A stretch of DNA of 64,000 nucleotides from a virus. The stretch covers positions 8,959-72,958 of IMG/VR virus record IMGVR_UViG_3300032267_001178; one strand, given 5' to 3'. Both the position numbers and the translations under genes were made by a program. The notes below the pieces were generated by a model, which was not told the origin of the DNA, did not search any database, and saw only the letters and a program-made list of their open reading frames with translations. This document shows, piece by piece, positions 45,890 to 63,783 of the stretch. Position 1 is the stretch's first letter; each line of letters opens with the position of its first letter.

Positions 45890-45919
45890 CGGATAGCTAA
45901 AAAAACACGGTCTAATAAA

Positions 45920-45960
45920 TAGCGCAGCATTTAAAATAATGCTGCGCTATTTTTATTTAT
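45920..45960 (+). terminator. Rho-independent terminator.
   Basis: TAGCGCAGCATT-taaaat-AATGCTGCGCTA followed by TTTTTATTTAT. Confidence 0.7.
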
Positions 45961-46155
45961 ATCCTCTGCAATTTAATTGCGAACCTTCCTACGAACTTAT
46001 GGATATTATCGAGTTCGTGTATGGATGATTAATAGGAGGATATTTAAATAAAATTGACCATGTGTTTATTCATAATTCAGGCAGAATTATGAATAAATGA
46101 TCGAGTGAAAACACGAGACGCATTTTTTGTCTAAGTACAACATAATAAAATACTT
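45961..46155 (+). promoter_or_regulatory. AT-rich intergenic region of about 195 bp upstream of the repeat-gene array. It probably holds the array promoter.
   Basis: It lies between a strong terminator and the first array gene and is AT-rich; no convincing sigma70 -35/-10 pair was found. Confidence 0.3.
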
Positions 46156-46416
46156 ATGAATGATGCAGTAGAAATACGTATAGAAGATTTGATACAGAAT
46201 GCGAAAATAGCCCATTCACGAGAACCTTGGGGTATTTTACATTGCGAGGAACAAGAAATCATAGCCTGGGTCCGTTCACGCCATGAAGCGCATATGACCT
46301 GGCGTTGTAAACGTTACAAGCATGGCATCCCGGGCCACGTAAAATTCAGTTCGTCTGGCCGTTCAATGCAGCAGATTAACATGCTGTACTACGGACACTA
46401 TCTACCCGAAGAATGA
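46156..46416 (+). CDS. Leader gene of the array, with no repeats.
   Basis: 86-aa ORF whose stop overlaps the first repeat unit start (ATGA). Confidence 0.45.
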   Translation: MNDAVEIRIEDLIQNAKIAHSREPWGILHCEEQEIIAWVRSRHEAHMTWRCKRYKHGIPGHVKFSSSGRSMQQINMLYYGHYLPEE

Positions 46417-46649
46417 TCATCCTGGGTGAGCACTTCCGCAGCGCCATTATCCTTCACAGTATCCAAGATGGTGTCGCAAGCAATGTCTGGGACAATGTTC
46501 AATGTAATTTCCAGACCGATGCCCGGCATAATGTGACTGTCAGTATCCGGGATGATATCTGGCATAAAGTCTGGAGTAATGGCATGAGCAATGTTCGTAA
46601 TGATGTTACGCGTCATGTCCTGTCCCACTTTCCAAAGAATAACAAATGA
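46413..46649 (+). CDS. Tetrapeptide-repeat small protein, unit 1 (divergent N-terminus).
   Basis: SNVWDNVQCNFQTDARHNVTVSIRDDIWHKVWSNGMSNVRNDV. Confidence 0.55.
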   Translation: MIILGEHFRSAIILHSIQDGVASNVWDNVQCNFQTDARHNVTVSIRDDIWHKVWSNGMSNVRNDVTRHVLSHFPKNNK

Positions 46650-46861
46650 GCGCCAACGAAGTAAACGACATCATCTTCGGAAATATCTGGTACAAAATCC
46701 AGAGCGATATACACCGCAATGTTCTTAACTCTGTATATAATAATGCCCGTGATAATGTCTTGTACGCTGTTCTACACAGTGTCGCACGGGATATTCGGAA
46801 TAATGTCGAGAATATTGTCCGTTATAGTGTCTCTTCACAGATTAAAAAACATACCGAATGA
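46646..46861 (+). CDS. Tetrapeptide-repeat small protein, unit 2.
   Basis: MSANEV...HRNVLNSVYNNARDNV...IRNNVENIV...KKHTE. Confidence 0.55.
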   Translation: MSANEVNDIIFGNIWYKIQSDIHRNVLNSVYNNARDNVLYAVLHSVARDIRNNVENIVRYSVSSQIKKHTE

Positions 46862-47103
46862 ATGCTGAAGAAGTGAGAAAGAGCGTCTGTAGCAATGTCA
46901 TGCAAAATGTCCGGAACAATGTCTTGTCTGACACCGAGTCTATTGTCTGTCACAATGTCGATAATAATAACGTACGGACCAATGTCTGGAATAATGTCCG
47001 GCATAATGTCGAGGACAATGTCTGGGGTAATGTCCGGAATAATGTCTTGGAGCATGCCGTTTTACAAATTCGCACACACATCAAATGCACCCGGAAGAGG
47101 TGA
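46858..47103 (+). CDS. Tetrapeptide-repeat small protein, unit 3.
   Basis: MNAEEVRK...NVMQNVRNNV...HNVDNNNVRTNVWNNVRHNVEDNVWGNVRNNV. Confidence 0.6.
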   Translation: MNAEEVRKSVCSNVMQNVRNNVLSDTESIVCHNVDNNNVRTNVWNNVRHNVEDNVWGNVRNNVLEHAVLQIRTHIKCTRKR

Positions 47104-47276
47104 GAGAGATTGTCTGGTACAATGTCGATGATAATGTCCGGGATAATGTCTGGATTAATGTACGGTGCAATGTTCCGGATAATTTCGGAAGGAATGTCCG
47201 GCATAATGTCCAGTTTAATGTCGAATCTAATGTTCAGGAAAACGTTCTTTTACAAGTTTACGCGCATATCGAATGA
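47085..47276 (+). CDS. Tetrapeptide-repeat small protein, unit 4.
   Basis: MHPEEVRE..YNVDDNVRDNVWINVRCNV...AHIE. Confidence 0.55.
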   Translation: MHPEEVREIVWYNVDDNVRDNVWINVRCNVPDNFGRNVRHNVQFNVESNVQENVLLQVYAHIE

Positions 47277-47467
47277 ATGCTAACGAAGTAAGTGATATCA
47301 TCTACGAAAATATCTGGGACAGCATCCAGTATTCTGTAACAGATGCTATCCATGTTCATGTCAGAGATAAAATCTGGACTGATGTTTGGTACAGTGTCCA
47401 GGATAATGTTGAGGAGCATGTCCGGAATAATACCCAGGACATACATGCCAATATCTGGCTGGAGTAA
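47273..47467 (+). CDS. Tetrapeptide-repeat small protein, unit 5.
   Basis: MNANEVSD...ENIWDSIQYSV...DVWYSVQDNVEEHVRNN. Confidence 0.55.
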   Translation: MNANEVSDIIYENIWDSIQYSVTDAIHVHVRDKIWTDVWYSVQDNVEEHVRNNTQDIHANIWLE

Positions 47468-47473
47468 TAACTA

Positions 47474-47779
47474 ATGAACGCTAACGAAGTTAAAGCCTTT
47501 GTGCATGTTAATATTTGGCGCAATATCCAAGATGGTGTCGCAAGCAATGTCTGGCGTAATGTCCGTGATAATGTAGAGGATAATGTCGCGTATACCGTTC
47601 TTCATAGTATCTCACACAATATTCGGAGTAATGTCGTAGGCAATATTTGGCGTAGTATCCAGCTCAATGTAGAGGACAGCGTTGATGATAAGGTAATGTT
47701 AATTATCCGGGAGGAGGTCTGGTCTAATGTTCATAATGTTCAAGACAATGTTCTAAGCTATGCAAGCGCCATTCTATGA
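47474..47779 (+). CDS. Tetrapeptide-repeat small protein, unit 6. It is longer than the others, and its conserved tail is left out of frame at 47776-47821.
   Basis: MNANEVKA...SNVWRNVRDNVEDNV...; the downstream YDVFEDVFSHFQTNE tail is encoded in another frame. Confidence 0.5.
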   Translation: MNANEVKAFVHVNIWRNIQDGVASNVWRNVRDNVEDNVAYTVLHSISHNIRSNVVGNIWRSIQLNVEDSVDDKVMLIIREEVWSNVHNVQDNVLSYASAIL

Positions 47780-47821
47780 TGTCTTTGAAGATGTCTTTTC
47801 ACATTTTCAAACAAACGAATA

Positions 47822-48070
47822 ATGAATGCTGATGAAGTAAGAGCCAGTATCTACGATAATGTTATGAATAACGTATCTCGTAATGTCCTGGCTAGGGTCT
47901 CCTACAAAGTCGACCGTAGTGTCGTGAACAATCTTTTGGGCGACATATGGTATGATGTCCAGGATAATGTTTGGAGCCATGTCTGGCGTAATGTCGGCGA
48001 CAGTGTCCGTACTTGTGTCTATGATAATGTCTTTGACGATGTCTTTTCACATTTTCAAACAAACGAATAA
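47822..48070 (+). CDS. Tetrapeptide-repeat small protein, unit 7.
   Basis: MNADEVRASIYDNVMNNVSRNV...DDVFSHFQTNE. Confidence 0.6.
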   Translation: MNADEVRASIYDNVMNNVSRNVLARVSYKVDRSVVNNLLGDIWYDVQDNVWSHVWRNVGDSVRTCVYDNVFDDVFSHFQTNE

Positions 48071-48273
48071 TGAATGCTGACCAAGTAAGAACCAGTATCC
48101 GGAATAAGGTCCTGAGTGATGTGTGGAGTAACGTTCAGGACAATGTCTGGAGTAATGTCTGGAGTAACGTGTGGAGCAATGTCGATGATAATGTCTCCGA
48201 TAATATTATGAATAATGTGTGGAATGACATCGCACACAATGTCCTCCCCCAAATGCGAGCGCGTATCGAATGA
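48070..48273 (+). CDS. Tetrapeptide-repeat small protein, unit 8 (the most regular repeats).
   Basis: MNADQVRT...DVWSNVQDNVWSNVWSNVWSNVDDNVSDNIMNNVWNDIAHNV...ARIE. Confidence 0.65.
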   Translation: MNADQVRTSIRNKVLSDVWSNVQDNVWSNVWSNVWSNVDDNVSDNIMNNVWNDIAHNVLPQMRARIE

Positions 48274-48497
48274 ATGTGGATGAAGTAAGAACCAGTATCC
48301 GGAATAAGGTCCTGAGTGATGTGTGGAGTAACGTTCAGGACAGCACCCAGTATTCTGTAACAGATGCTATCCATTTTCATATCATAGATGAAATCTGGGT
48401 GGATGTTTGGCACAGTGTCCAGGATAACGTTGAGGAGCATGTCCGGAATAATATCCAGGACATACATGCCAATGTCTGGTGCCAATGTCTGGAGTAA
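48270..48497 (+). CDS. Tetrapeptide-repeat small protein, unit 9. It is a mosaic of unit 8's 5' part and unit 5's 3' part.
   Basis: MNVDEVRTSIRNKVLSDVWSNVQD + STQYSVTDAIHFHI...DNVEEHVRNNIQDIHANVW. Confidence 0.55.
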   Translation: MNVDEVRTSIRNKVLSDVWSNVQDSTQYSVTDAIHFHIIDEIWVDVWHSVQDNVEEHVRNNIQDIHANVWCQCLE

Positions 48498-48535
48498 TAA
48501 CTAATTGTCCTCCCCCAAATGCGAGCGCGTATCGA

Positions 48536-48766
48536 ATGAATGTGGATGAAGTAAGAACCAGTATCCAGTACAAGATCCTAGGCGATGTACGTTACAGTAT
48601 TTGGAATAACTTCCTTGCTAATCTACGGCGTAACATCGACCGCAATGTAAACGCTAATGTCCAGGCCAATGTCCGGCTCAATGCCCACTCTAATATTTAC
48701 CGCGATGTCCATAGCAATGTGGCTGATAGTGTTCGTAACACCTCTTACATAACAAATGAATCTTGA
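48536..48766 (+). CDS. Tetrapeptide-repeat small protein, unit 10. The start is at an internal ATG of the 48479 track ORF.
   Basis: MNVDEVRTSIQYKILGDVRYSIWNN...NVNANVQANVRLNAHSNIYRDVHSNVADSV. Confidence 0.5.
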   Translation: MNVDEVRTSIQYKILGDVRYSIWNNFLANLRRNIDRNVNANVQANVRLNAHSNIYRDVHSNVADSVRNTSYITNES

Positions 48767-49001
48767 GGAATTAAGATCCAATATCCAGCACAATATCTTA
48801 AGTGATGTCTGGGATAAAACTTGGTACAATATAAAAGTTAATTTATGGATTATTTTCCTGCGTGATGTTAGCGATGATTTACGAGATAATATCAACGGTA
48901 ACACTCAGTTTAAAGTCAGAAAAACCATCGAGCAAAATGTCAGCATCAGAGTTGATAATGGCTTTGACGATGTCTTTTCACATTTTCATACAAACAAATA
49001 A
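48756..49001 (+). CDS. Tetrapeptide-repeat small protein, unit 11.
   Basis: MNLEELRSNIQHNILSDVWDKTWYNI...FDDVFSHFHTNK. Confidence 0.5.
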   Translation: MNLEELRSNIQHNILSDVWDKTWYNIKVNLWIIFLRDVSDDLRDNINGNTQFKVRKTIEQNVSIRVDNGFDDVFSHFHTNK

Positions 49002-49219
49002 TGATCAGCTCCGATGAAGTAAGAAACAGTATTCGGTATATTGTCCGCGCTAGTGTATCTTATAACGTCTGGAATGATGTCTTGAATAATGTCGAAGCCA
49101 ATGTCTCCGATAGTGTGCGCCAGAATATATGGACCGACTTGAGGTTTCATGTCGCAGATAAAATCTGGGCTAATGTTGCGGGAAATATCCTCGCGCATAT
49201 TAAAACACATACTTCATGA
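49001..49219 (+). CDS. Tetrapeptide-repeat small protein, unit 12.
   Basis: MISSDEVRNSI...YNVWNDVLNNVEANVSDSVRQNIW...AHIKTHTS. Confidence 0.55.
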   Translation: MISSDEVRNSIRYIVRASVSYNVWNDVLNNVEANVSDSVRQNIWTDLRFHVADKIWANVAGNILAHIKTHTS

Positions 49220-49431
49220 ACTCCGATGAAGTAAGAGCCATTATCCATAACGATATCCAAGAGGATGTCGGGCTTAATATAAGGACTAACGTCCAGGGTA
49301 ATCTCTCGCATAGTTTGCGTGTTAATGCGGCGCACAACGTTTGGCAAAATGTCTGGGACAACGTTTGGCAAAATGCCTGGGATAATGTTTGGTTCAATGT
49401 CCGCACACATGTGAAAACTCATAAAGAATGA
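49216..49431 (+). CDS. Tetrapeptide-repeat small protein, unit 13.
   Basis: MNSDEVRA...HNVWQNVWDNVWQNAWDNVWFNVRTHVKTHKE. Confidence 0.6.
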   Translation: MNSDEVRAIIHNDIQEDVGLNIRTNVQGNLSHSLRVNAAHNVWQNVWDNVWQNAWDNVWFNVRTHVKTHKE

Positions 49432-49661
49432 ACGCCGACGAAGTAAGAACCATTATTCAAAACAACCTTTCACACGATAGCGGGTTTGCTTTAGAGTCTT
49501 GTGTCGAGAATAATGTTCAGGATAATGTCCTTGTTAATATCACGAATATTGTCTGGTACAGCGTCTGGTACGACGTGCATACCAATATTCTTGTTAATGT
49601 TGGGAATGTCGTCCGAGCCATGTCCCCCCACATGTTAAAACAAATACTGAATGAATGCTGA
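49428..49661 (+). CDS. Tetrapeptide-repeat small protein, unit 14.
   Basis: MNADEVRTIIQNN...NNVQDNVLVNITNIVWYSVWYDVHTNILVNVGNVV. Confidence 0.55.
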   Translation: MNADEVRTIIQNNLSHDSGFALESCVENNVQDNVLVNITNIVWYSVWYDVHTNILVNVGNVVRAMSPHMLKQILNEC

Positions 49662-49860
49662 ACAAGTAAGCACCATTATTGTGCGTAATATTCGCCATGA
49701 GGTATGGGATAGCATTTGGTACAATGTAAGAGGTAATTTATGGCGCAATGTCGAGCGTAGCGTATCTCACACCATACGGAGCAATGTCCAGACCGACACA
49801 TGGGTCGCTTTCGCGCATGATGTCCGCGCGTACCTCGACGTGCATTTTGATGACTGCTGA
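49651..49860 (+). CDS. Tetrapeptide-repeat small protein, unit 15.
   Basis: MNAEQVSTII..HEVWDSIWYNVRGNLWRNVERSV. Confidence 0.5.
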   Translation: MNAEQVSTIIVRNIRHEVWDSIWYNVRGNLWRNVERSVSHTIRSNVQTDTWVAFAHDVRAYLDVHFDDC

Positions 49861-50062
49861 AGAAGTTAAGACCGTTATTCAGAATAATTTAATGAATGAC
49901 GTCCTGTATATCATCGAGTGTAATGTCCTGGATAATGTAAAGGACAATATCCTTAATGATATTGTGAATAATCTTGAGCATAAAGTCTGGAATAACATAT
50001 GGATTAACGTCCGGTACACTGCCCTTTTTAGACATACATCGAATGAACGCCACAATAGCTAG
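49850..50062 (+). CDS. Tetrapeptide-repeat small protein, unit 16 (start at an internal ATG with ATGA-type overlap).
   Basis: MTAEEVKTVIQNN...CNVLDNVKDNILNDIVNNLEHKVWNNIWINV. Confidence 0.5.
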   Translation: MTAEEVKTVIQNNLMNDVLYIIECNVLDNVKDNILNDIVNNLEHKVWNNIWINVRYTALFRHTSNERHNS

Positions 50063-50267
50063 ATCTATTATTAGGGAACATATACAAGATAATATTCGCG
50101 CCACTTTAGATCGTAATATCAGCCGAGAAGCCTCGGACTTTATAAAAGATAATGTTCGCTTCGATGTACGTTATTATGTAGAAGAGAATTTGTGGCGCAC
50201 TGTCATGGGTAGAGCCGCGCGGATTGCCCATTCACAACTTTACATTGGCTTAACGCATGGAGTCTAG
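50043..50267 (+). CDS. Tetrapeptide-repeat small protein, unit 17 (degenerate).
   Basis: MNATIARSIIREHIQDNIRATLDRNI...KDNVRFDVRYYVEENLW. Confidence 0.4.
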   Translation: MNATIARSIIREHIQDNIRATLDRNISREASDFIKDNVRFDVRYYVEENLWRTVMGRAARIAHSQLYIGLTHGV

Positions 50268-50529
50268 AGAAGCGAGAACTGCTATCCAGGATAATGTCTT
50301 AAACGGTGTCAGTGACATTGTTTGGGTTAATCTCTGGTCCAAGATACAAAACAGTTTGAGGCAGAGCGTTTACGCTAACCTCCCGGTGGAAGTCGCGCAT
50401 GAGGTCTGGGATGCCTTGCAGAATACTGTCTGGGGCAGTGTCCTAGATAATGTATGGCTGGTTGTGTACGGCAATGTCAACATGTCCATTAAAACACATA
50501 TCCCAAATGAACCCGTACCAAGTAAATAA
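50257..50529 (+). CDS. Tetrapeptide-repeat small protein, unit 18.
   Basis: MESREARTAIQDNVLNGVSDIVWVNLW...VWGSVLDNVWLVVYGNVNMSIKTHI. Confidence 0.5.
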   Translation: MESREARTAIQDNVLNGVSDIVWVNLWSKIQNSLRQSVYANLPVEVAHEVWDALQNTVWGSVLDNVWLVVYGNVNMSIKTHIPNEPVPSK

Positions 50530-50764
50530 TTCCCCGAAAAATGTCCAGACTAATATCTGGGACGACGTGCGATCTAATGTCTTACTCAATGTTAATGTCT
50601 GGCATAAGGTACGGGGGTATGTTGAAGATAATGTCAGAGATAATATCTGGGACGACGTGAGAGCTAATGTCGCGCTCAATGTGCATCTTAATATCGCGAA
50701 TAAAGTCTTATCTGCTTGGACAGAGCAGATGCAGCAATTTACACACGTACGAAATGAAATTTGA
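50507..50764 (+). CDS. Tetrapeptide-repeat small protein, unit 19.
   Basis: MNPYQVNN..NVQTNIWDDVRSNVLLNVNVWHKVRGYVEDNVRDNIWDDVRANVALNVHLNI. Confidence 0.5.
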   Translation: MNPYQVNNSPKNVQTNIWDDVRSNVLLNVNVWHKVRGYVEDNVRDNIWDDVRANVALNVHLNIANKVLSAWTEQMQQFTHVRNEI

Positions 50765-50999
50765 CGAAGTAAGAAATATTATTGACCGAAGCGTTCGTGA
50801 GAATGTCGAGTATCATGTATGGAATAATTTAATTTGCAATATTGCGATCGATGTACCACGCACTAATACCGTGGGTCGTGACGATGTTGACTACAATACC
50901 AGATGCAATGTCTGGAATAATGTGCGCATCGGTGTCAGGTCCGTGGTCGTGAGAACTTTATTGGCCTACGATGACCGCACACCTCAATTGCCTTTTTAG
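50754..50999 (+). CDS. Tetrapeptide-repeat small protein, unit 20 (last and most degenerate).
   Basis: MKFDEVRNIIDRSVRENVEYHVWNN...CNVWNNVRIGV. Confidence 0.45.
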   Translation: MKFDEVRNIIDRSVRENVEYHVWNNLICNIAIDVPRTNTVGRDDVDYNTRCNVWNNVRIGVRSVVVRTLLAYDDRTPQLPF

Positions 51000-51001
51000 T
51001 A

Positions 51002-51280
51002 ATGATTGATCCAGAAAAAGAATTCGTAATGCCCCTCGTACACTTGAACGGGTCTGGCAGAGAAAGACTGCTACGAGAATATGAAGCTGCCTCAGAAACC
51101 TTATCAGCTTTCATTGAGAGCTGGAGGGACGTTACATTCCATCCCCGGGATTATTATCCCCTAGGAGATAGCGCGTGGGACCAAGCCAGAGCGGATAGGA
51201 TGGAGATGTCGGAGAAATTATCCGATATCAAAAACTACATTGATACCCATTTGCAGAGTATTTTTTCTGACAATGAGTGA
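51002..51280 (+). CDS. Hypothetical protein.
   Basis: 92-aa ORF. Confidence 0.35.
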   Translation: MIDPEKEFVMPLVHLNGSGRERLLREYEAASETLSAFIESWRDVTFHPRDYYPLGDSAWDQARADRMEMSEKLSDIKNYIDTHLQSIFSDNE

Positions 51281-51509
51281 CCGCATTCGGAATCTTGTCT
51301 ACGTAAGCGTCCATAACAAAACCCATGAGCTGGGGCAAATTTTTACGAGCGCGTTGCTACAAGAAGAATGTAAGTACGGTGAAAATGTGTCTCCCCTCAG
51401 ACAAAGCCTGGCGCGTTACAACTATGTCATTGTAACTCAAGTCTACGCGCATATGGATGACTTAAAATATAATGTGGGAGACTTTATAGGTACCTTCCCT
51501 ACATCCTGA
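51273..51509 (+). CDS. Hypothetical protein (start at the ATGA overlap).
   Basis: MSDRIRNLVYVSV... Confidence 0.35.
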   Translation: MSDRIRNLVYVSVHNKTHELGQIFTSALLQEECKYGENVSPLRQSLARYNYVIVTQVYAHMDDLKYNVGDFIGTFPTS

Positions 51510-51529
51510 ATGTTGCTTATCCTTTTATT

Positions 51530-51757
51530 ATGTCTGCACCTTTGCTCCGGATTGCGTGTAACAGCGTCTCTGAACGCATCACTACGGAAATATTAGACAC
51601 CCCTTGCTGCGTGATTTGCTTTGATCTGTTGGACCACATACGCGACGACCTGGTACCGTATCACGTTGTTTGGGGCGCTGTGCGCGCGCCCGTACGTGCC
51701 CAAGTTTGGGAAGCTATTAGAGGAGAAACCGCAAATTTTTGTTGCTATGAATACTGA
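51530..51757 (+). CDS. Hypothetical protein.
   Basis: 75-aa ORF. Confidence 0.3.
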   Translation: MSAPLLRIACNSVSERITTEILDTPCCVICFDLLDHIRDDLVPYHVVWGAVRAPVRAQVWEAIRGETANFCCYEY

Positions 51758-51926
51758 CACACAATCAGGTTTTACTGTGACTCAACGTCGCAGGGTCGAG
51801 GATGCGCTGCACTTTGCCCGTAAGCATGAGCAACGGGTTTGGGGAAGCGGTAACGACCATGAAAAAGCTCGCGCAGAAGTCGAGCGATTGGAGGCTATTT
51901 TGAAATCTTGGCCGAACGTAGATTAA
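51747..51926 (+). CDS. Hypothetical protein (internal ATG overlapping the preceding stop).
   Basis: MNTDTQSGFTVTQRRRVEDALHFARKHEQRVWGSGNDHEKARAEVERLEAILKSWPNVD. Confidence 0.3.
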   Translation: MNTDTQSGFTVTQRRRVEDALHFARKHEQRVWGSGNDHEKARAEVERLEAILKSWPNVD

Positions 51927-52201
51927 TCATTGAAGATATGTCCTATGTTTCTTTTGAAGACGCTGATGAACGTAGATTGCTCATCGAAGATATGTCCTGG
52001 ATTGCGGTTGAAGACGCTGTCTCGTACTGGGGTTTGAATCCCTTGCAGAATTGGAGCATCCATAACGCTCCTCATGTGTTACAGGAGCAGGAGCTATTAT
52101 CCTTCGTAAGGTTCTATACGCGTAACCATTTCCACGCTCAAAAAAAGCTTTCGGCGCGAAATAGCCCCGACAGCAATATGATTACGATGAGTGTTATATG
52201 A
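51908..52201 (+). CDS. Hypothetical protein with an internal tandem duplication.
   Basis: ERRLIIEDMSYVSFEDAD followed by ERRLLIEDMSWIAVEDAV. Confidence 0.35.
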   Translation: MAERRLIIEDMSYVSFEDADERRLLIEDMSWIAVEDAVSYWGLNPLQNWSIHNAPHVLQEQELLSFVRFYTRNHFHAQKKLSARNSPDSNMITMSVI

Positions 52202-52343: not shown

Positions 52344-53291
52344 ATGATAACATCACTCACCCCGGAACAGGAAGCCCTGTTCCCCGAATATGTAAAGAAA
52401 TGGACGGATGTCGGCACCGATACGTGCCGACTTGACCCGGTCACGACCGAAAAGATTATTCACGACTTCCAGGCATTAGTCCTGGACCGAAAGGCCACAC
52501 CCGTTGTGATCGTGGAGAATCCGATCGAAGCCTGGATTGCGTGTAACTACAGCGTACTGGGGTCTAAGCCCGAGGAGCTGCACGAACGCTTGAAGGAATA
52601 CTTCACGGCCGAGGAGAAACCAATCCAGGTTGCCTCGCCTGTGTTCCCCTACCAAGAAGGATCGTTTTCAACCGCGATCTTCTCTTACTACGACTATATC
52701 CTGCGGGAGTTGAAGCTGCCGCTGGATGCTACACTCATGCGTAAGTATGAAGCCTGGGAGGCCACGTGCCAGCTGGGTTTCATCTACCCCCTTGAGACTG
52801 TGTGTATCGTCTCCCAGAAGCCTGCCAGCATCAAACTGGACGACGAGCATAGGCTTCACTGCGACGGGGGCCCCGCACTCACCTACGCTGGGTACGGTAA
52901 CTTCAATATCTACTCGCTCCACGGCGTAACCGTGGATCAGTACCTGGCTGAGACGCCCGGCGAACAGTTGAGCCTGGACTACTACCACACGATCACCAAC
53001 GCCGACCAGCGTACGGAGTTCGTCCGGAAGTTCGGTGTTGAGCGTATGCTGGAGCTCGGTAAGAAGATCGACTCTCATGAGAGTTACAATGAGGAGTGGT
53101 GGACAAAATCGGAGTACGAGCTGTGGGATATGGCTTGTCTTTTCGAGGGCGTCTCGTATGCTCCGCATCTGAAGATGCTTAACCAGACCACAGGGATCTG
53201 GCACGTAGAGGCGGTGTCCCCCTCTTGCGAAAATCTCGCCCAAGCGATCAGTGACCGCATGGGTGACTTCCAAATCATCAACATCAAATAA
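52344..53291 (+). CDS. Hypothetical protein (315 aa) in a comparatively GC-rich block.
   Basis: Long ORF; the antisense shadow ORFs 52668..53321 and 53084..53656 are considered spurious. Confidence 0.45.
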   Translation: MITSLTPEQEALFPEYVKKWTDVGTDTCRLDPVTTEKIIHDFQALVLDRKATPVVIVENPIEAWIACNYSVLGSKPEELHERLKEYFTAEEKPIQVASPVFPYQEGSFSTAIFSYYDYILRELKLPLDATLMRKYEAWEATCQLGFIYPLETVCIVSQKPASIKLDDEHRLHCDGGPALTYAGYGNFNIYSLHGVTVDQYLAETPGEQLSLDYYHTITNADQRTEFVRKFGVERMLELGKKIDSHESYNEEWWTKSEYELWDMACLFEGVSYAPHLKMLNQTTGIWHVEAVSPSCENLAQAISDRMGDFQIINIK

Positions 53292-53305: not shown

Positions 53306-53653
53306 ATGAAAGAAAATACACCCAAAGCCAAGGCCGTTCTCCACGGAGAGGCCATCATCTTCGAAGCGAGCATCCCCGCTTCGGCCCGCCCTGTGCCCGC
53401 ACCCACCACAGGCTACCGCATTATCGCGCCGTCGGAAGTGACGGGCAACCACCACGTCATCGACTGCCCCAGGGGCGTCGAGTTCCTGGAGGATGACGGC
53501 AAGTTCTGGATGAAGAGCAGCGTGCCTACACAGGTGCGTTGCCTCCTCCCCTCCCGTCACGACAGCATCACGCTGCCTCCTGGGGAGTACGGATTCGGCA
53601 TCCAACAAGAATATGACTACATTGCGGAAGCAAAACGCAATGTGGCTGACTAA
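53306..53653 (+). CDS. Hypothetical protein.
   Basis: 115-aa ORF. Confidence 0.4.
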   Translation: MKENTPKAKAVLHGEAIIFEASIPASARPVPAPTTGYRIIAPSEVTGNHHVIDCPRGVEFLEDDGKFWMKSSVPTQVRCLLPSRHDSITLPPGEYGFGIQQEYDYIAEAKRNVAD

Positions 53654-63706: not shown

Positions 63707-63783
63707 GCACCCTTAGCTCAATCGGATAGAGCAACGGATTTCTAATCCGTAGGTTGTGGGTTCGAATCCCGCAGGGTGTGCCA
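63707..63783 (+). tRNA. tRNA-Arg (anticodon UCU) with encoded CCA.
   Basis: Cloverleaf: acceptor GCACCCT/AGGGTGT; D-arm GCTC..GAGC; anticodon stem ACGGA/TCCGT with loop TTTCTAA (anticodon TCT at 63741-63743); T-arm GTGGG-TTCGAAT-CCCGC; 3' GCCA. Confidence 0.8.

What the first reader, a model, noticed from the sequence alone, without database searches (positions are those of the whole stretch)
46413..50999. Tandem array of about 20 paralogous small genes encoding x-N-V-x tetrapeptide-repeat proteins
Over 4.6 kb, some 20 consecutive ORFs of 63-104 aa begin with a conserved MNA(D/E)EVR(T/A)xI N-terminus. They consist almost entirely of a 4-residue repeat ([N/D/S/H]-[V/I]-[W/R/x]-x, for example DVWSNVQDNVWSNVWSNVWSNVDDNV) and end with a short (T/A)HI(E/K) tail. 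Each stop overlaps or abuts the next ATG (..HIE* / ATGAATGC..), which points to a single translationally coupled operon. The array sits downstream of a strong terminator, an AT-rich gap and a non-repeat leader gene. Synonymous changes in the conserved N-terminal codons (aat/aac, gct/gcc, gat/gac) indicate selection on the protein rather than on the DNA alone. A 4-residue period is not that of the pentapeptide, hexapeptide or heptad repeat families, and I do not recognise this as any described phage gene family. A large array of fast-evolving small paralogs is the architecture phages usually use for anti-defence or host-takeover proteins, and these proteins are moderately acidic, so a periodic acidic/amide surface acting as a DNA mimic is a reasonable hypothesis.
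Basis: partly seen in the sequence, partly recalled or inferred. Interest (0 to 1): 0.9.

Follow-up and report, generated by a model that had tools for sequence, protein, structure and literature searches.

The report
Phage array of tetrapeptide-repeat minigenes
An uncultivated phage carries 20 back-to-back small genes, each probably encoding one long helix built from a four-residue repeat; the same repeat usually sits inside a widespread, unstudied phage protein (DUF6745) whose repeat-free copy lies next to the array, and it resembles the repeat that lets mycobacteriophage Tweety escape a host defence.

Summary
Window 46413-50999 contains 20 consecutive + strand genes of 63-101 aa. They cover 98% of the region, and 17 of 19 junctions overlap. 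Hydrophobic residues recur strictly every 4 positions. No Pfam, PHROGs, NCBIfam, PADLOC or PDB family matches.

The repeat itself is not new. A profile of the units finds more than 1,500 proteins. Of the 147 newly returned proteins among the 150 top hits listed, 106 are DUF6745 (PF20530) proteins with a tract of 20-70 tetrads of the same kind ([N/S/Q]-[V/I/L]-[W/R/G]-[D/A/S]) between their N and C parts. The window's own DUF6745 gene (52344-53291) has no tract and lies 1.3 kb downstream.

In viral contigs, 28 of 46 repeat-less DUF6745 loci have such minigene arrays within 10 kb. None of 7 tract-bearing loci does. A 50%-identical fused ortholog exists (L056).

The arrays turn over quickly. Near-identical contigs differ by 12-, 36-, 60- and 312-nt in-frame indels. 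pN/pS is 0.42, against about 0.14 in flanking genes.

The closest studied analogue is Tweety gp54, a counter-defence protein tuned by tetrapeptide-repeat number. It is not homologous.

Best reading: a split, amplified, fast-evolving form of the DUF6745 repeat module, probably acting in phage-host conflict. The DNA-mimic idea is not supported. Function remains inferred.

The parts
45917..45952 (+). Intrinsic terminator closing the upstream (DUF3307) transcription unit
   Evidence: 15-bp stem with 6 G-C pairs and a T-rich tail; sequence read.
45953..46155 (.). AT-rich intergenic gap, presumed promoter region for the array operon
   Evidence: Read. The sigma-70 scan found no match here, so no promoter is identified.
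46156..46416 (+). Non-repeat leader gene (86 aa); its stop overlaps the start of unit 1 (ATGA)
   Evidence: Conserved in strain L001 (pN/pS 0.17). No homologue in L009. No family hit.
46413..46649 (+). Unit 1 (78 aa); atypical N-terminus, tetrad body
46646..46861 (+). Unit 2 (71 aa)
46858..47103 (+). Unit 3 (81 aa); AF2 predicts a single helix over residues 3-80
   Evidence: pLDDT 82, pTM 0.34. Best L009 counterpart is 62% identical.
47085..47276 (+). Unit 4 (63 aa)
   Evidence: 73% identical to its L009 counterpart. Units 3 and 4 are fused into one 67-aa unit in L001/L002/L004.
47273..47467 (+). Unit 5 (64 aa)
   Evidence: Its C-terminal half is duplicated in unit 9 (142-nt repeat, 92% identical).
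47474..47779 (+). Unit 6 (101 aa); an in-register fusion of two units produced by a 312-nt deletion
   Evidence: L006 and L008 (99.9% identical) carry three units here, of 73, 73 and 65 aa. The register is preserved across the junction.
47780..47821 (+). Out-of-frame remnant of the unit 6 tail (..YDVFEDVFSHFQTNE in L001)
   Evidence: Repeat family D4; sequence; intact tail in L001.
47822..48070 (+). Unit 7 (82 aa)
48070..48273 (+). Unit 8 (67 aa; ..DVWSNVQDNVWSNVWSNVWSNVDDNV..)
48270..48497 (+). Unit 9 (75 aa); a chimera of the head of unit 8 and the body of unit 5; absent from L001/L002/L004
   Evidence: families D3 and D6.
48536..48766 (+). Unit 10 (76 aa, counted from the conserved cap ATG)
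   Evidence: The 25 nt upstream are identical to those upstream of unit 9.
48756..49001 (+). Unit 11 (81 aa)
   Evidence: identical to P0001.
49001..49219 (+). Unit 12 (72 aa)
49216..49431 (+). Unit 13 (71 aa); 16 tetrads in one unbroken register
49428..49661 (+). Unit 14 (77 aa)
49651..49860 (+). Unit 15 (69 aa)
   Evidence: identical to P0003.
49850..50062 (+). Unit 16 (70 aa from the cap ATG)
50043..50267 (+). Unit 17 (74 aa from the cap ATG)
   Evidence: A unit 17/18 fusion variant exists in a related contig (P0007).
50257..50529 (+). Unit 18 (90 aa)
50507..50764 (+). Unit 19 (85 aa from the cap ATG); 42 nt shorter in L001
50754..50999 (+). Unit 20 (81 aa); last of the array, most degenerate
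   Evidence: identical to P0004.
51002..52201 (+). Block of four or five small non-array genes (92, 78, 75, 59 and about 87-97 aa) between the array and the DUF6745 gene, syntenic in L009
   Evidence: The first four (g92, g78, g75, g59) are 63-90% identical in L009; the fifth (51908/51938-52201) was not compared. No Pfam hit. The 75-aa product (51530-51757) has a short tetrad run, VWGAVRAPVRAQVWEAI.
52344..53291 (+). Repeat-less DUF6745 (PF20530) gene, the inferred functional partner of the array
53306..53653 (+). 115-aa gene that follows DUF6745 in both split and fused loci
   Evidence: 84% identical in L009. A 107-aa homologue follows the fused DUF6745 gene in L056. A 115-aa gene occupies the same position in L010/L011. 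No Pfam hit.

Best explanation
The array is a tandemly amplified, fast-diversifying family of minigenes. Each probably encodes one continuous alpha helix of about 15-17 tetrads of the form [N/S/D]-[V/I/L]-[W/R/x]-[D/N/S/x]. These proteins are the free-standing ('split') form of the tetrapeptide-repeat tract that, in most relatives, is built into the phage/prophage protein DUF6745 between its N and C parts. In this phage the DUF6745 gene has no tract, and about 20 tract-only genes lie 1.3 kb upstream in the same orientation.

The array is probably read as one translationally coupled transcript that starts after the terminator at 45917-45952. It changes by slippage and unequal recombination of a 12-nt unit (AATGTCnnnnnn). 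This adds, removes and fuses tetrads and whole units in frame and in register.

Inferred mechanism: the helices provide, in trans and in many variants, the recognition or spacing element that the DUF6745 protein otherwise carries in cis. Together they act during infection against a variable host target, most plausibly a defence system. This would parallel the tetrapeptide tract of Tweety gp54, where repeat number tunes counter-defence specificity.

Shown here: the genes are real and under selection; the repeats are of the same type; split and fused forms are complementary and syntenic; the array is hypervariable. Inferred only: physical cooperation with DUF6745, and a counter-defence role.
For: 1. 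Coding and selection.
- Plus-strand ORF coverage is 98.7%, against 6.7% in shuffles.
- Window versus L001: 33 synonymous and 54 nonsynonymous changes, pN/pS 0.42, p = 1.4e-4 against neutrality.
- The Val position takes 4 of 49 amino-acid changes.

2. Same repeat as DUF6745.
- The unit profile gives 1,511 hits at E <= 1e-3 among 1.84 billion representatives.
- 106 of the 147 newly returned proteins among the 150 listed match the window's own DUF6745 family on both sides of a 20-70-tetrad tract. Pfam confirms this for P0014, P0018, P0021 and P0024.
- Position-specific composition agrees, including W/R at position 3.

3. Split versus fused.
- 28 of 46 non-redundant repeat-less DUF6745 viral loci carry arrays of 2-26 such minigenes within 10 kb. 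The arrays are often directly adjacent and always co-oriented.
- None of 7 tract-bearing loci does (Fisher p = 0.003).
- L056 is a 50-52% identical fused ortholog with the same downstream partner gene and no minigenes.
- Two DNA-pattern scans that did not use DUF6745 again found the tetrads mostly in or beside DUF6745 genes.

4. Hypervariability.
- Window versus L006: a 312-nt in-register deletion.
- L023 versus L024 (99.73% identical): 12- and 36-nt indels. L044 versus L045 (99.93% identical): a 60-nt indel. All lie inside units.
- Unit chimeras and fusions occur (P0007, P0009, unit 9).
- Against L009 the neighbouring genes are 63-91% identical, but most units have best matches of only 30-48%.

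5. Structure. AF2 gives a single helix over residues 3-80 (pLDDT 82), and the register is unbroken.

6. Context. DUF6745 genes lie in the replication/early regions of phages and prophages: prophiGD102-1 gp38, Ma-LMM01 gp174 and a prophage in a 2.6-Mb chromosome beside DNA methylases.

7. Analogy. In Tweety gp54, changes in tetrapeptide-repeat number give escape from the Phrann gp29/gp30 defence (PMC9262239; described in PMC2884959).
Against: - No experiment or expression data exist for any DUF6745 protein or any unit. No paper in the library mentions DUF6745.
- Tweety gp54 is not homologous (hhalign probability 0.1%; no Pfam hit), so the functional analogy may not carry over.
- 18 of 46 repeat-less DUF6745 loci show no array within 10 kb. 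Ma-LMM01 gp174 has neither a tract nor, in the 15 kb examined, an array.
- The loci were found through DUF6745 similarity and are phylogenetically related, so co-occurrence partly reflects shared descent.
- Profile E-values for repeats are inflated by low complexity.
- DUF6745 sits in replication modules, which fits a role in DNA metabolism as well as one in defence evasion.
- Purifying selection is weak. Substitutions by codon position are 24/29/34, not significantly skewed.
- A single long helix is a common default AF2 output for repeats (pTM 0.34).
Confidence: 0.5

Rival explanations
1. The units and DUF6745 serve phage DNA replication or genome maintenance, for example as a helical spacer or adaptor in a replication or repair complex. 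They would not be aimed at host defence, and the variability would be a neutral by-product of a slippery 12-nt repeat.
For: DUF6745 genes lie within replication modules. Examples are the window itself (helicase, DNA polymerase and UvsX-like genes upstream), prophiGD102-1 (after the RepA-like initiator), Ma-LMM01 (between the DNA polymerase and uracil-DNA glycosylase genes, whose neighbours are middle-class genes, PMC5780444) and L098 (after a primase). The strong codon bias shows that DNA-level repeat dynamics are at work.
Against: Housekeeping replication factors are not normally present as 20 divergent paralogs that turn over almost completely between phages whose neighbouring genes are 63-91% identical. 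Variation falls on tetrad positions 1, 3 and 4 and spares the Val position, which points to a preserved fold with variable surfaces. 18 of 46 repeat-less loci lack an array, so the array is accessory.
Confidence: 0.22
2. One reading: the units are acidic DNA mimics that block restriction or other DNA-binding defence proteins.
For: Fourteen of 20 units have a net negative charge. The repeat would give a periodic Asp/Asn surface. In L010/L011 a Lar-type restriction-alleviation gene lies near DUF6745.
Against: Net charge is only -9 to +3 and pI spans 4.5-9.5, with 5 basic units. Trp and Arg are the commonest residues at position 3. On the predicted single helix the stripes have a pitch of about 54 A, and the helix is about half the diameter of DNA. 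No match to known mimics in Pfam, PADLOC or the PDB. Arrays in other lineages are Lys/Arg-rich, for example the K-V type in L069.
Confidence: 0.06
3. The array is non-functional or selfish: either an expanding 12-nt repeat, or the decaying remnant of one long repeat tract, in which ORFs persist only because the repeat lacks stop codons.
For: The periodic sequence also keeps long ORFs open in the +1 frame and on the antisense strand (MSGIMSG.. and ..PDIIPDI..). Codon usage is repeat-driven. Unit 6 has a frameshifted tail. The codon-position skew of substitutions is not significant.
Against: Each unit has its own conserved start cap, tail and stop-start overlap. Independent arrays in other phages have their own lineage-specific caps and tails, such as MTLKDSV...IKSHDT, MKRSLNNSV...NKINETIT and MKPIKEQL...LKDEID. 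pN/pS is below 1 (p = 1.4e-4). Indels are in frame and in register. The unit frames rotate through all three reading frames, so one decayed ORF cannot account for them.
Confidence: 0.08
4. The feature works at the DNA or RNA level, for example as iterons, a recombination hotspot or a structured RNA, and the ORFs are incidental.
For: The 12-nt periodicity is clear. Junction DNA is better conserved between units than the bodies are.
Against: No Rfam match. The same peptide repeat is encoded by different DNA in other lineages (S-V, K-V and Q-L types) and occurs inside ordinary protein-coding genes. Evidence for selection on the protein is given above.
Confidence: 0.03

Closest known systems
Internal tetrapeptide-repeat tract of DUF6745 (Pfam PF20530) phage/prophage proteins, e.g. 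Mycobacterium prophage prophiGD102-1 gp38 and viral contig L056
   Same: The tetrad is the same: position 1 N/S/Q, position 2 V/I/L, position 3 W/R/G, position 4 D/A/S, with a 12-nt DNA period. It lies in the same genomic neighbourhood as a DUF6745 gene. The fused L056 gene is a 50%-identical ortholog of the window's DUF6745 gene and has the same downstream partner gene.
   Different: The units have neither the N part (LTPEQE..KW) nor the C domain (PF20530). Each is a separate gene with its own 5-residue cap and short tail. There are about 20 copies of 15-17 tetrads each, rather than one tract of 20-70 tetrads. The tract itself is not part of the Pfam model, and the family has no known function and no solved structure.
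Mycobacteriophage Tweety gp54 (also Che8 gp57 and PMC gp51), a tetrapeptide-repeat counter-defence protein
   Same: It has a 12-bp/4-residue repeat with two constant and two variable positions, and W/G alternating at position 3. Repeat number differs between close relatives. It is a non-essential gene in the early region of a phage. Changes in repeat number alter its function, giving escape from the Phrann gp29/gp30 defence (PMC2884959, PMC9262239).
   Different: The repeat is A-A-[G/W/Q]-[S/Y]. It is one protein with unique N (about 140 aa) and C (about 40 aa) domains. These domains are unrelated to DUF6745 (hhalign probability 0.1%; no Pfam hit). No tandem array of tract-only genes has been described.
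Second tract-bearing architecture in viral contigs: N-domain / x-S-V-[W/R/G]-[D/A] tract / C-domain ..GLVPSFDGKxWRLH.. (e.g. P0087, L120, L131)
   Same: The W/R tetrad tract is identical. It was found in 27 of 80 loci sampled with a D-S-V-W-D-S-V DNA pattern.
   Different: The flanking domains differ and have no Pfam family (for P0087). These are single genes, not arrays. None is present in the window.
Bordetella phage BPP-1/BMP-1 Bbp36 variable region 2 (VR2)
   Same: A phage early-region gene with a short in-frame peptide repeat whose copy number varies between isolates (PMC2884959; annotated repeat_region).
   Different: The repeat is an octapeptide, GTATAGYR. The N domain is DUF7666, not DUF6745. 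It is a single gene and its function is unknown.
Pentapeptide-repeat proteins (Qnr, MfpA) and other DNA mimics
   Same: Short tandem peptide repeats, with a proposed role in interfering with DNA-binding proteins.
   Different: Those have a period of 5 and form a right-handed beta-helix. Here the period is 4, the prediction is an alpha helix, there is no Pfam pentapeptide hit, and the charge is not consistently acidic.

Membership tests
DUF6745 (PF20530) proteins | C-terminal PF20530 domain (..LHxxxGPAxxYxDG..) | tested here: not met
   No unit matches PF20530. The neighbouring gene 52344-53291 does (E = 6.6e-10).
DUF6745 (PF20530) proteins | Conserved N part (..LTPEQE..L..Y..KW..SP.EA..) | tested here: not met
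   The units begin MNADEVR and go straight into tetrads. The N part is present in the neighbouring gene.
DUF6745 (PF20530) proteins | Central tract of [S/N/Q]-[V/L/I]-[W/R/G]-[D/A] tetrads (present in most members, not all) | tested here: met
   The unit profile retrieves these tracts. Position-specific composition matches.
Tweety gp54-type tetrapeptide-repeat counter-defence proteins | Tandem 4-residue/12-bp repeat with constant and variable positions | tested here: met
   compare PMC2884959.
Tweety gp54-type tetrapeptide-repeat counter-defence proteins | Repeat number varies between close relatives | tested here: met
   12-, 36-, 60- and 312-nt in-frame indels between contigs 99.7-99.9% identical.
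Tweety gp54-type tetrapeptide-repeat counter-defence proteins | Unique N- and C-terminal domains flanking the repeats, homologous to those of gp54 | tested here: not met
   The units have no flanking domains. The DUF6745 profile against gp54 gives hhalign probability 0.1%. gp54 has no Pfam hit.
Tweety gp54-type tetrapeptide-repeat counter-defence proteins | Neutralises a prophage-encoded defence (Phrann gp29/gp30) | not testable with these tools
   Needs infection assays. Known for gp54 only, from PMC9262239.
Pentapeptide-repeat proteins / DNA mimics | 5-residue period forming a beta-helix; strongly acidic surface | tested here: not met
   The period is 4. AF2 predicts a helix. No Pfam hit. 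Net charge is -9 to +3.
Canonical coiled coils | Hydrophobic period of 3.5 (heptad), 3.67 or 3.75 residues | tested here: not met
   V/I/L autocorrelation peaks only at lags 4, 8 and 12. No structural match to the helix model in the PDB.
Known anti-phage defence or anti-defence models (PADLOC-DB) | Match to any PADLOC model | tested here: not met
   No hit for the units, DUF6745, Tweety gp54 or the neighbouring genes.

The most novel reading that the evidence does not exclude
The array would be a phage-encoded library of interchangeable specificity helices. Each minigene would supply a different W/R/D-patterned helix that docks onto the repeat-less DUF6745 scaffold, or replaces its missing tract. 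One scaffold with about 20 rapidly recombining adaptors could then recognise and neutralise many variants of a host defence protein. This would be a modular, germline-encoded diversification system, distinct from DGRs and from single-gene repeat tuning as in Tweety gp54.
Probability: 0.15. Interest if true: 0.9.

Novelty: new variant of a known kind. Interest (0 to 1): 0.68.

Why it matters
Tetrapeptide-repeat proteins are known in phage biology from essentially one studied case, Tweety gp54, where repeat number tunes escape from a host defence. This analysis adds three points.

- A related W/R-type tetrad tract is a common, mobile module in uncultivated phages and prophages. It occurs in thousands of DUF6745 proteins and in at least one further protein architecture.
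- In one broad group of large phages the module has been released from its host protein and amplified into hypervariable arrays of 2-26 minigenes.
- The split/fused pattern links the function of these otherwise unannotatable minigenes to DUF6745.

This gives DUF6745, a large family with no literature and no solved structure, a testable hypothesis. It also offers a natural system for asking whether repeat-tuned counter-defence is general. The strict 4.0-residue hydrophobic period on a predicted helix is a structural puzzle in its own right.

Tried and rejected
Searches that found nothing for the units:
- Pfam, PHROGs, NCBIfam and PADLOC gave only chance-level hits.
- A PDB sequence-profile search had a best E of 0.21.
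- Megablast of the array against cultured phages gave nothing.
- The word-indexed protein search with the unit profile found only the same phage lineage, 11 proteins. The exhaustive HMM search was needed to see the DUF6745 link.
- Rfam gave no match.

Searches that failed or were blocked:
- The search for related loci failed with alignments A1, A2 and A4 because no stretch was conserved enough. With a single unit in viral contigs it found nothing. The genome-contig scan was therefore never used.
- afdb50 was unavailable.
- Dedrick et al. 2017 is not held.

Ideas rejected:
- Tweety gp54 and BPP-1 Bbp36 as homologues of DUF6745.
- The non-DUF6745 profile hits that were inspected (GNVT tail-fibre repeats, ED-x-V acidic tracts fused to subtilase, a tract next to an Mrr domain, DUF5764) as the same repeat. 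They lack W/R at position 3.
- The antisense and +1-frame ORFs as genes. They are by-products of the periodic sequence.
- Residual tracts in repeat-less DUF6745 proteins; none were found.
- An SD-based argument against translation. Only 3 of 30 large genes in the window have an SD motif.
- The DNA polymerase has no close cultured relative (at most 26% identity), so the host remains unknown.

Full report
**Observation**

The region 46413-50999 contains 20 consecutive + strand ORFs. For five units I placed the start at the conserved cap ATG rather than the first ATG of the ORF: 48536, 49850, 50043, 50507 and 50754. With these starts the units are 63-101 aa and cover 98.1% of the region. Plus-strand ORFs of at least 60 aa cover 98.7%, against a mean of 6.7% (maximum 22%) in 200 shuffles.

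Hydrophobic residues recur with a strict 4-residue period. P(V/I/L at i+4, i+8 or i+12 | V/I/L at i) is 0.66, 0.61 and 0.63, against 0.14-0.18 at other lags. In most units a single register runs unbroken from the Val of the MNADEV cap to the C-terminal tail. TRF reports 12- and 24-nt periods.

Sixteen of 20 units share the cap M-x-x-[DEN]-[EQ]-[VL]. The (T/A)HI(E/K) tail is strict in only about five.

Of the 19 junctions between units, 17 overlap: -4 seven times, -11 five times, -1 twice, and -19, -20 and -23 once each. The leader gene also overlaps unit 1 by 4 nt. The other two junctions are gaps of 6 and 42 nt. With the start of unit 10 placed at 48536 its junction is a 38-nt gap, but the ORF as listed begins at a GTG at 48479 and overlaps unit 9.

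The upstream terminator (45917-45952), the AT-rich gap and the 86-aa leader gene are as described. No Shine-Dalgarno motif precedes the units. That is true of the whole window, where only 3 of 30 large genes have one, so it says nothing against translation.

**Source and context**

All genes in the window are on the + strand. Upstream of the array is a replication module with SbcC-like, DnaB-like, DNA polymerase and UvsX-like genes.

The window is 100% identical to ENA scaffold KRAE22-1_SAMEA4981775_METAG-scaffold_10, which is 115 kb (L005). No cultured phage is close: the DNA polymerase is at most 26% identical to any, and megablast of the array finds nothing. The host is unknown.

**Are the units real genes?**

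Compared with a strain about 96% identical (L001), 14 orthologous units show 33 synonymous and 54 nonsynonymous differences. This gives pN/pS of 0.42, against about 0.14 in five flanking genes. The deficit of nonsynonymous changes relative to neutrality has p = 1.4e-4.

Amino-acid changes avoid the Val position: 4 there, against 12, 14 and 19 at positions 1, 3 and 4. The codon-position skew (24/29/34) is not significant, so constraint is weak.

Codon usage at the constant positions is strongly biased. AAT makes up 88% of Asn codons, against 52% in other genes of the window. GTC makes up 52% of Val codons, against 17%. A 12-nt DNA unit is therefore spreading by slippage or recombination.

The long antisense and +1-frame ORFs (..PDIIPDI.., MSGIMSG..) are by-products of the periodic sequence.

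**What the units resemble**

Pfam, PHROGs, NCBIfam, PADLOC and PDB sequence searches give nothing for the units. A word-indexed search with the unit alignment found only 11 proteins, all from the same phage lineage.

An exhaustive profile search of 1.84 billion representatives found 1,511 proteins at E <= 1e-3. Of the 147 newly returned proteins among the 150 listed, 106 also match an HMM of the window's own DUF6745 family. They match it on both its N part (profile positions about 1-90) and its C part (about 100-315), and a tract of 20-70 tetrads lies between. Pfam confirms PF20530 in the members tested.

The tetrad composition agrees position by position:

| Position | Window units | DUF6745 tracts |
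|---|---|---|
| 1 | N42 S11 D10 | S36 N25 Q22 |
| 2 | V63 I26 L11 | V75 L16 I9 |
| 3 | R20 W18 | R29 W24 G19 |
| 4 | D17 N14 S10 | D39 A23 N9 |

The non-DUF6745 hits that I inspected have a different repeat. They include GNVT tail-fibre repeats and ED-x-V acidic tracts fused to subtilase, and they lack W/R at position 3.

The window itself encodes a DUF6745 protein at 52344-53291 (Pfam E = 6.6e-10). It has the N and C parts but no tract.

**Split versus fused**

I fetched viral contigs by similarity to the DUF6745 protein and scanned them with the unit HMM and a periodicity test. Of 46 non-redundant repeat-less DUF6745 loci (30-91% identical to the window protein), 28 carry 2-26 small tetrad-repeat genes within 10 kb. 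These are always co-oriented with DUF6745. They lie upstream in some loci and downstream in others, and are often directly adjacent. None of 7 loci whose DUF6745 gene carries the tract has any (Fisher p = 0.003).

Each array has its own flavour (N-V, S-V, K/E-V or Q-L) and its own cap and tail, for example MTLKDSV...IKSHDT, MKRSLNNSV...NKINETIT and MKPIKEQL...LKDEID. Each has the same stop-start overlaps.

L056 encodes a 449-aa DUF6745 protein that is 50-52% identical to the window protein on both sides. A tract of about 158 aa (x-Q-V type) replaces window residues 74-94. The same small partner gene follows it, and no minigenes are present.

Two DNA-pattern scans made without reference to DUF6745 gave the following.
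- N-V-W type: 12 true tetrad loci, 7 of them with DUF6745.
- D-S-V-W type, 80 loci: 37 fused to DUF6745; 27 in a second architecture with a ..GLVPSFDGKxWRLH.. C-domain; 7 with stand-alone units, including a 5-unit array (L166) and one split locus (L150); 9 with no unit hit.

The W/R tetrad tract is therefore a mobile module of phage proteins, and stand-alone arrays are its rarer form.

**Dynamics**

- L006 and L008 (99.9% identical to the window) carry three units where the window has the fused 101-aa unit 6. The difference is a 312-nt in-register deletion.
- In L001/L002/L004, units 3 and 4 are fused, unit 9 is missing and unit 19 is 42 nt shorter.
- Unit 9 is a chimera of units 8 and 5.
- P0007 and P0009 are further fusions, seen in related contigs.
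- In other lineages, contigs 99.73% and 99.93% identical differ internally only by 12-, 36- and 60-nt indels inside units.
- Against L009 (a 182-kb contig whose DUF6745 is 91% identical), the six neighbouring genes compared are 63-91% identical. Most units have best matches of only 30-48%.

**Structure**

AF2 of unit 3, using the paralog alignment, gives one helix spanning residues 3-80 (pLDDT 82, pTM 0.34). This fits the unbroken register, but a long helix is also a common default output for repeats.

On an alpha helix, a 4.0-residue period gives a right-handed Val stripe that turns 40 degrees per tetrad. That does not match any known coiled-coil periodicity, so how the helices pack is unexplained.

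**What is known**

No paper in the library mentions DUF6745 or PF20530.

Cultured examples are annotated as hypothetical proteins, and all lie in replication or early regions:
- Mycobacterium prophage prophiGD102-1 gp38, which has a tract of Q-L type.
- Ma-LMM01 gp174, which has no tract and sits between the DNA polymerase and uracil-DNA glycosylase genes. Its neighbours are middle-class genes (PMC5780444).
- A prophage in a 2.6-Mb chromosome, next to DNA methyltransferases.

The closest studied analogue is mycobacteriophage Tweety gp54. It has N and C regions flanking 40-48 A-A-[G/W/Q]-[S/Y] tetrads, and repeat number differs between relatives. Mutants with more or fewer repeats escape the Phrann gp29/gp30 defence (PMC2884959, PMC9262239). 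gp54 is not homologous to DUF6745. BPP-1 Bbp36 (VR2) is another variable-repeat gene from a phage early region, but it has an octapeptide repeat and a DUF7666 domain.

**Interpretation**

Shown by the analysis:
- The array is a real, weakly constrained, hypervariable multigene family.
- Its repeat is of the same type as the DUF6745 tract.
- It is syntenically linked to a repeat-less DUF6745 gene, and arrays and internal tracts are complementary across loci.

Inferred:
- The helices cooperate with DUF6745, supplying its missing tract in trans.
- The system acts on a variable host target, most plausibly a defence system, by analogy with Tweety gp54 and from the arms-race pattern of evolution.

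A role in replication or DNA metabolism is the main rival, because of the genomic context. The DNA-mimic idea is not supported: net charge runs from -9 to +3 and position 3 is rich in W/R.

Caveats: the loci are phylogenetically related; profile E-values for low-complexity repeats are inflated; only 87 substitutions underlie the pN/pS estimate; and there are no expression data.

**Verdict**

I classify the array as a new variant of a known kind (phage tetrapeptide-repeat proteins), tied to a large uncharacterised family. Interest is about 0.68.

Noticed in passing
window 51914-52019 (in ORF 51908-52201): A 54-nt tandem repeat, 2 copies, 82% identical. It encodes ERRLIIEDMSYVSFEDAD / ERRLLIEDMSWIAVEDAV in a small gene between the array and DUF6745.
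   Followed up: no
window 51530-51757: A 75-aa Cys-rich protein with a short tetrad run (VWGAVRAPVRAQVWEAI). Its L009 homologue weakly hits the unit HMM (E = 1e-6). It is conserved (66% identical) between the array and DUF6745.
   Followed up: partly
window 53306-53653; L056 11387-11710; L010 11031-11378: A gene of about 107-115 aa (..GNHH..) directly follows the DUF6745 gene in split, fused and array-less loci. It is a conserved partner with no Pfam family.
   Followed up: partly
whole window: Only 3 of 30 large genes have a Shine-Dalgarno-like motif upstream. This suggests a host with SD-independent initiation, such as Bacteroidota or cyanobacteria. The host is not identified.
   Followed up: partly
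window 63707-63783: A phage-encoded tRNA-Arg (anticodon TCT).
   Followed up: no
window 47780-47821: The 42-nt spacer after unit 6 is the out-of-frame remnant of a ..YDVFEDVFSHFQTNE tail that is intact in L001. One extra base truncates unit 6 in this strain and in L006/L008.
   Followed up: yes
window 46800-49700 (unit junctions): Junction DNA (tail plus cap, e.g. ..CACATnTnAAAACnnATAnnGAATGAATGC..) is more similar between units than the tetrad bodies are. The 25 nt upstream of units 7 and 8, and of units 9 and 10, are identical. This may be a reinitiation signal, or a trace of recent duplications.
   Followed up: partly
L120, L131, L156, L165, L177 (viral contigs); P0087: A second protein architecture carries the same W/R tetrad tract. 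Various N domains precede the tract, and a conserved C domain of about 65 aa follows (..GAYxSSxFP..WKY..NPF..LW..GLVPSFDGKxWRLH..). P0087, the one member scanned, has no Pfam family.
   Followed up: partly
L099 6932-8068 (Microcystis phage Ma-LMM01 gp174): The cultured cyanophage Ma-LMM01 and its MaMV relatives encode a DUF6745 protein with no tract. A Lys/Glu-rich linker sits at the position where the tract is inserted in other members. The gene lies in the replication module.
   Followed up: partly
window 46398-50104, - strand and +1 frame: Long antisense ORFs (..PDIIPDI..) and +1-frame ORFs (MSGIMSGIMSG..NEC) run through the array. They are artefacts of the stop-free periodic sequence and could mislead gene callers.
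   Followed up: yes
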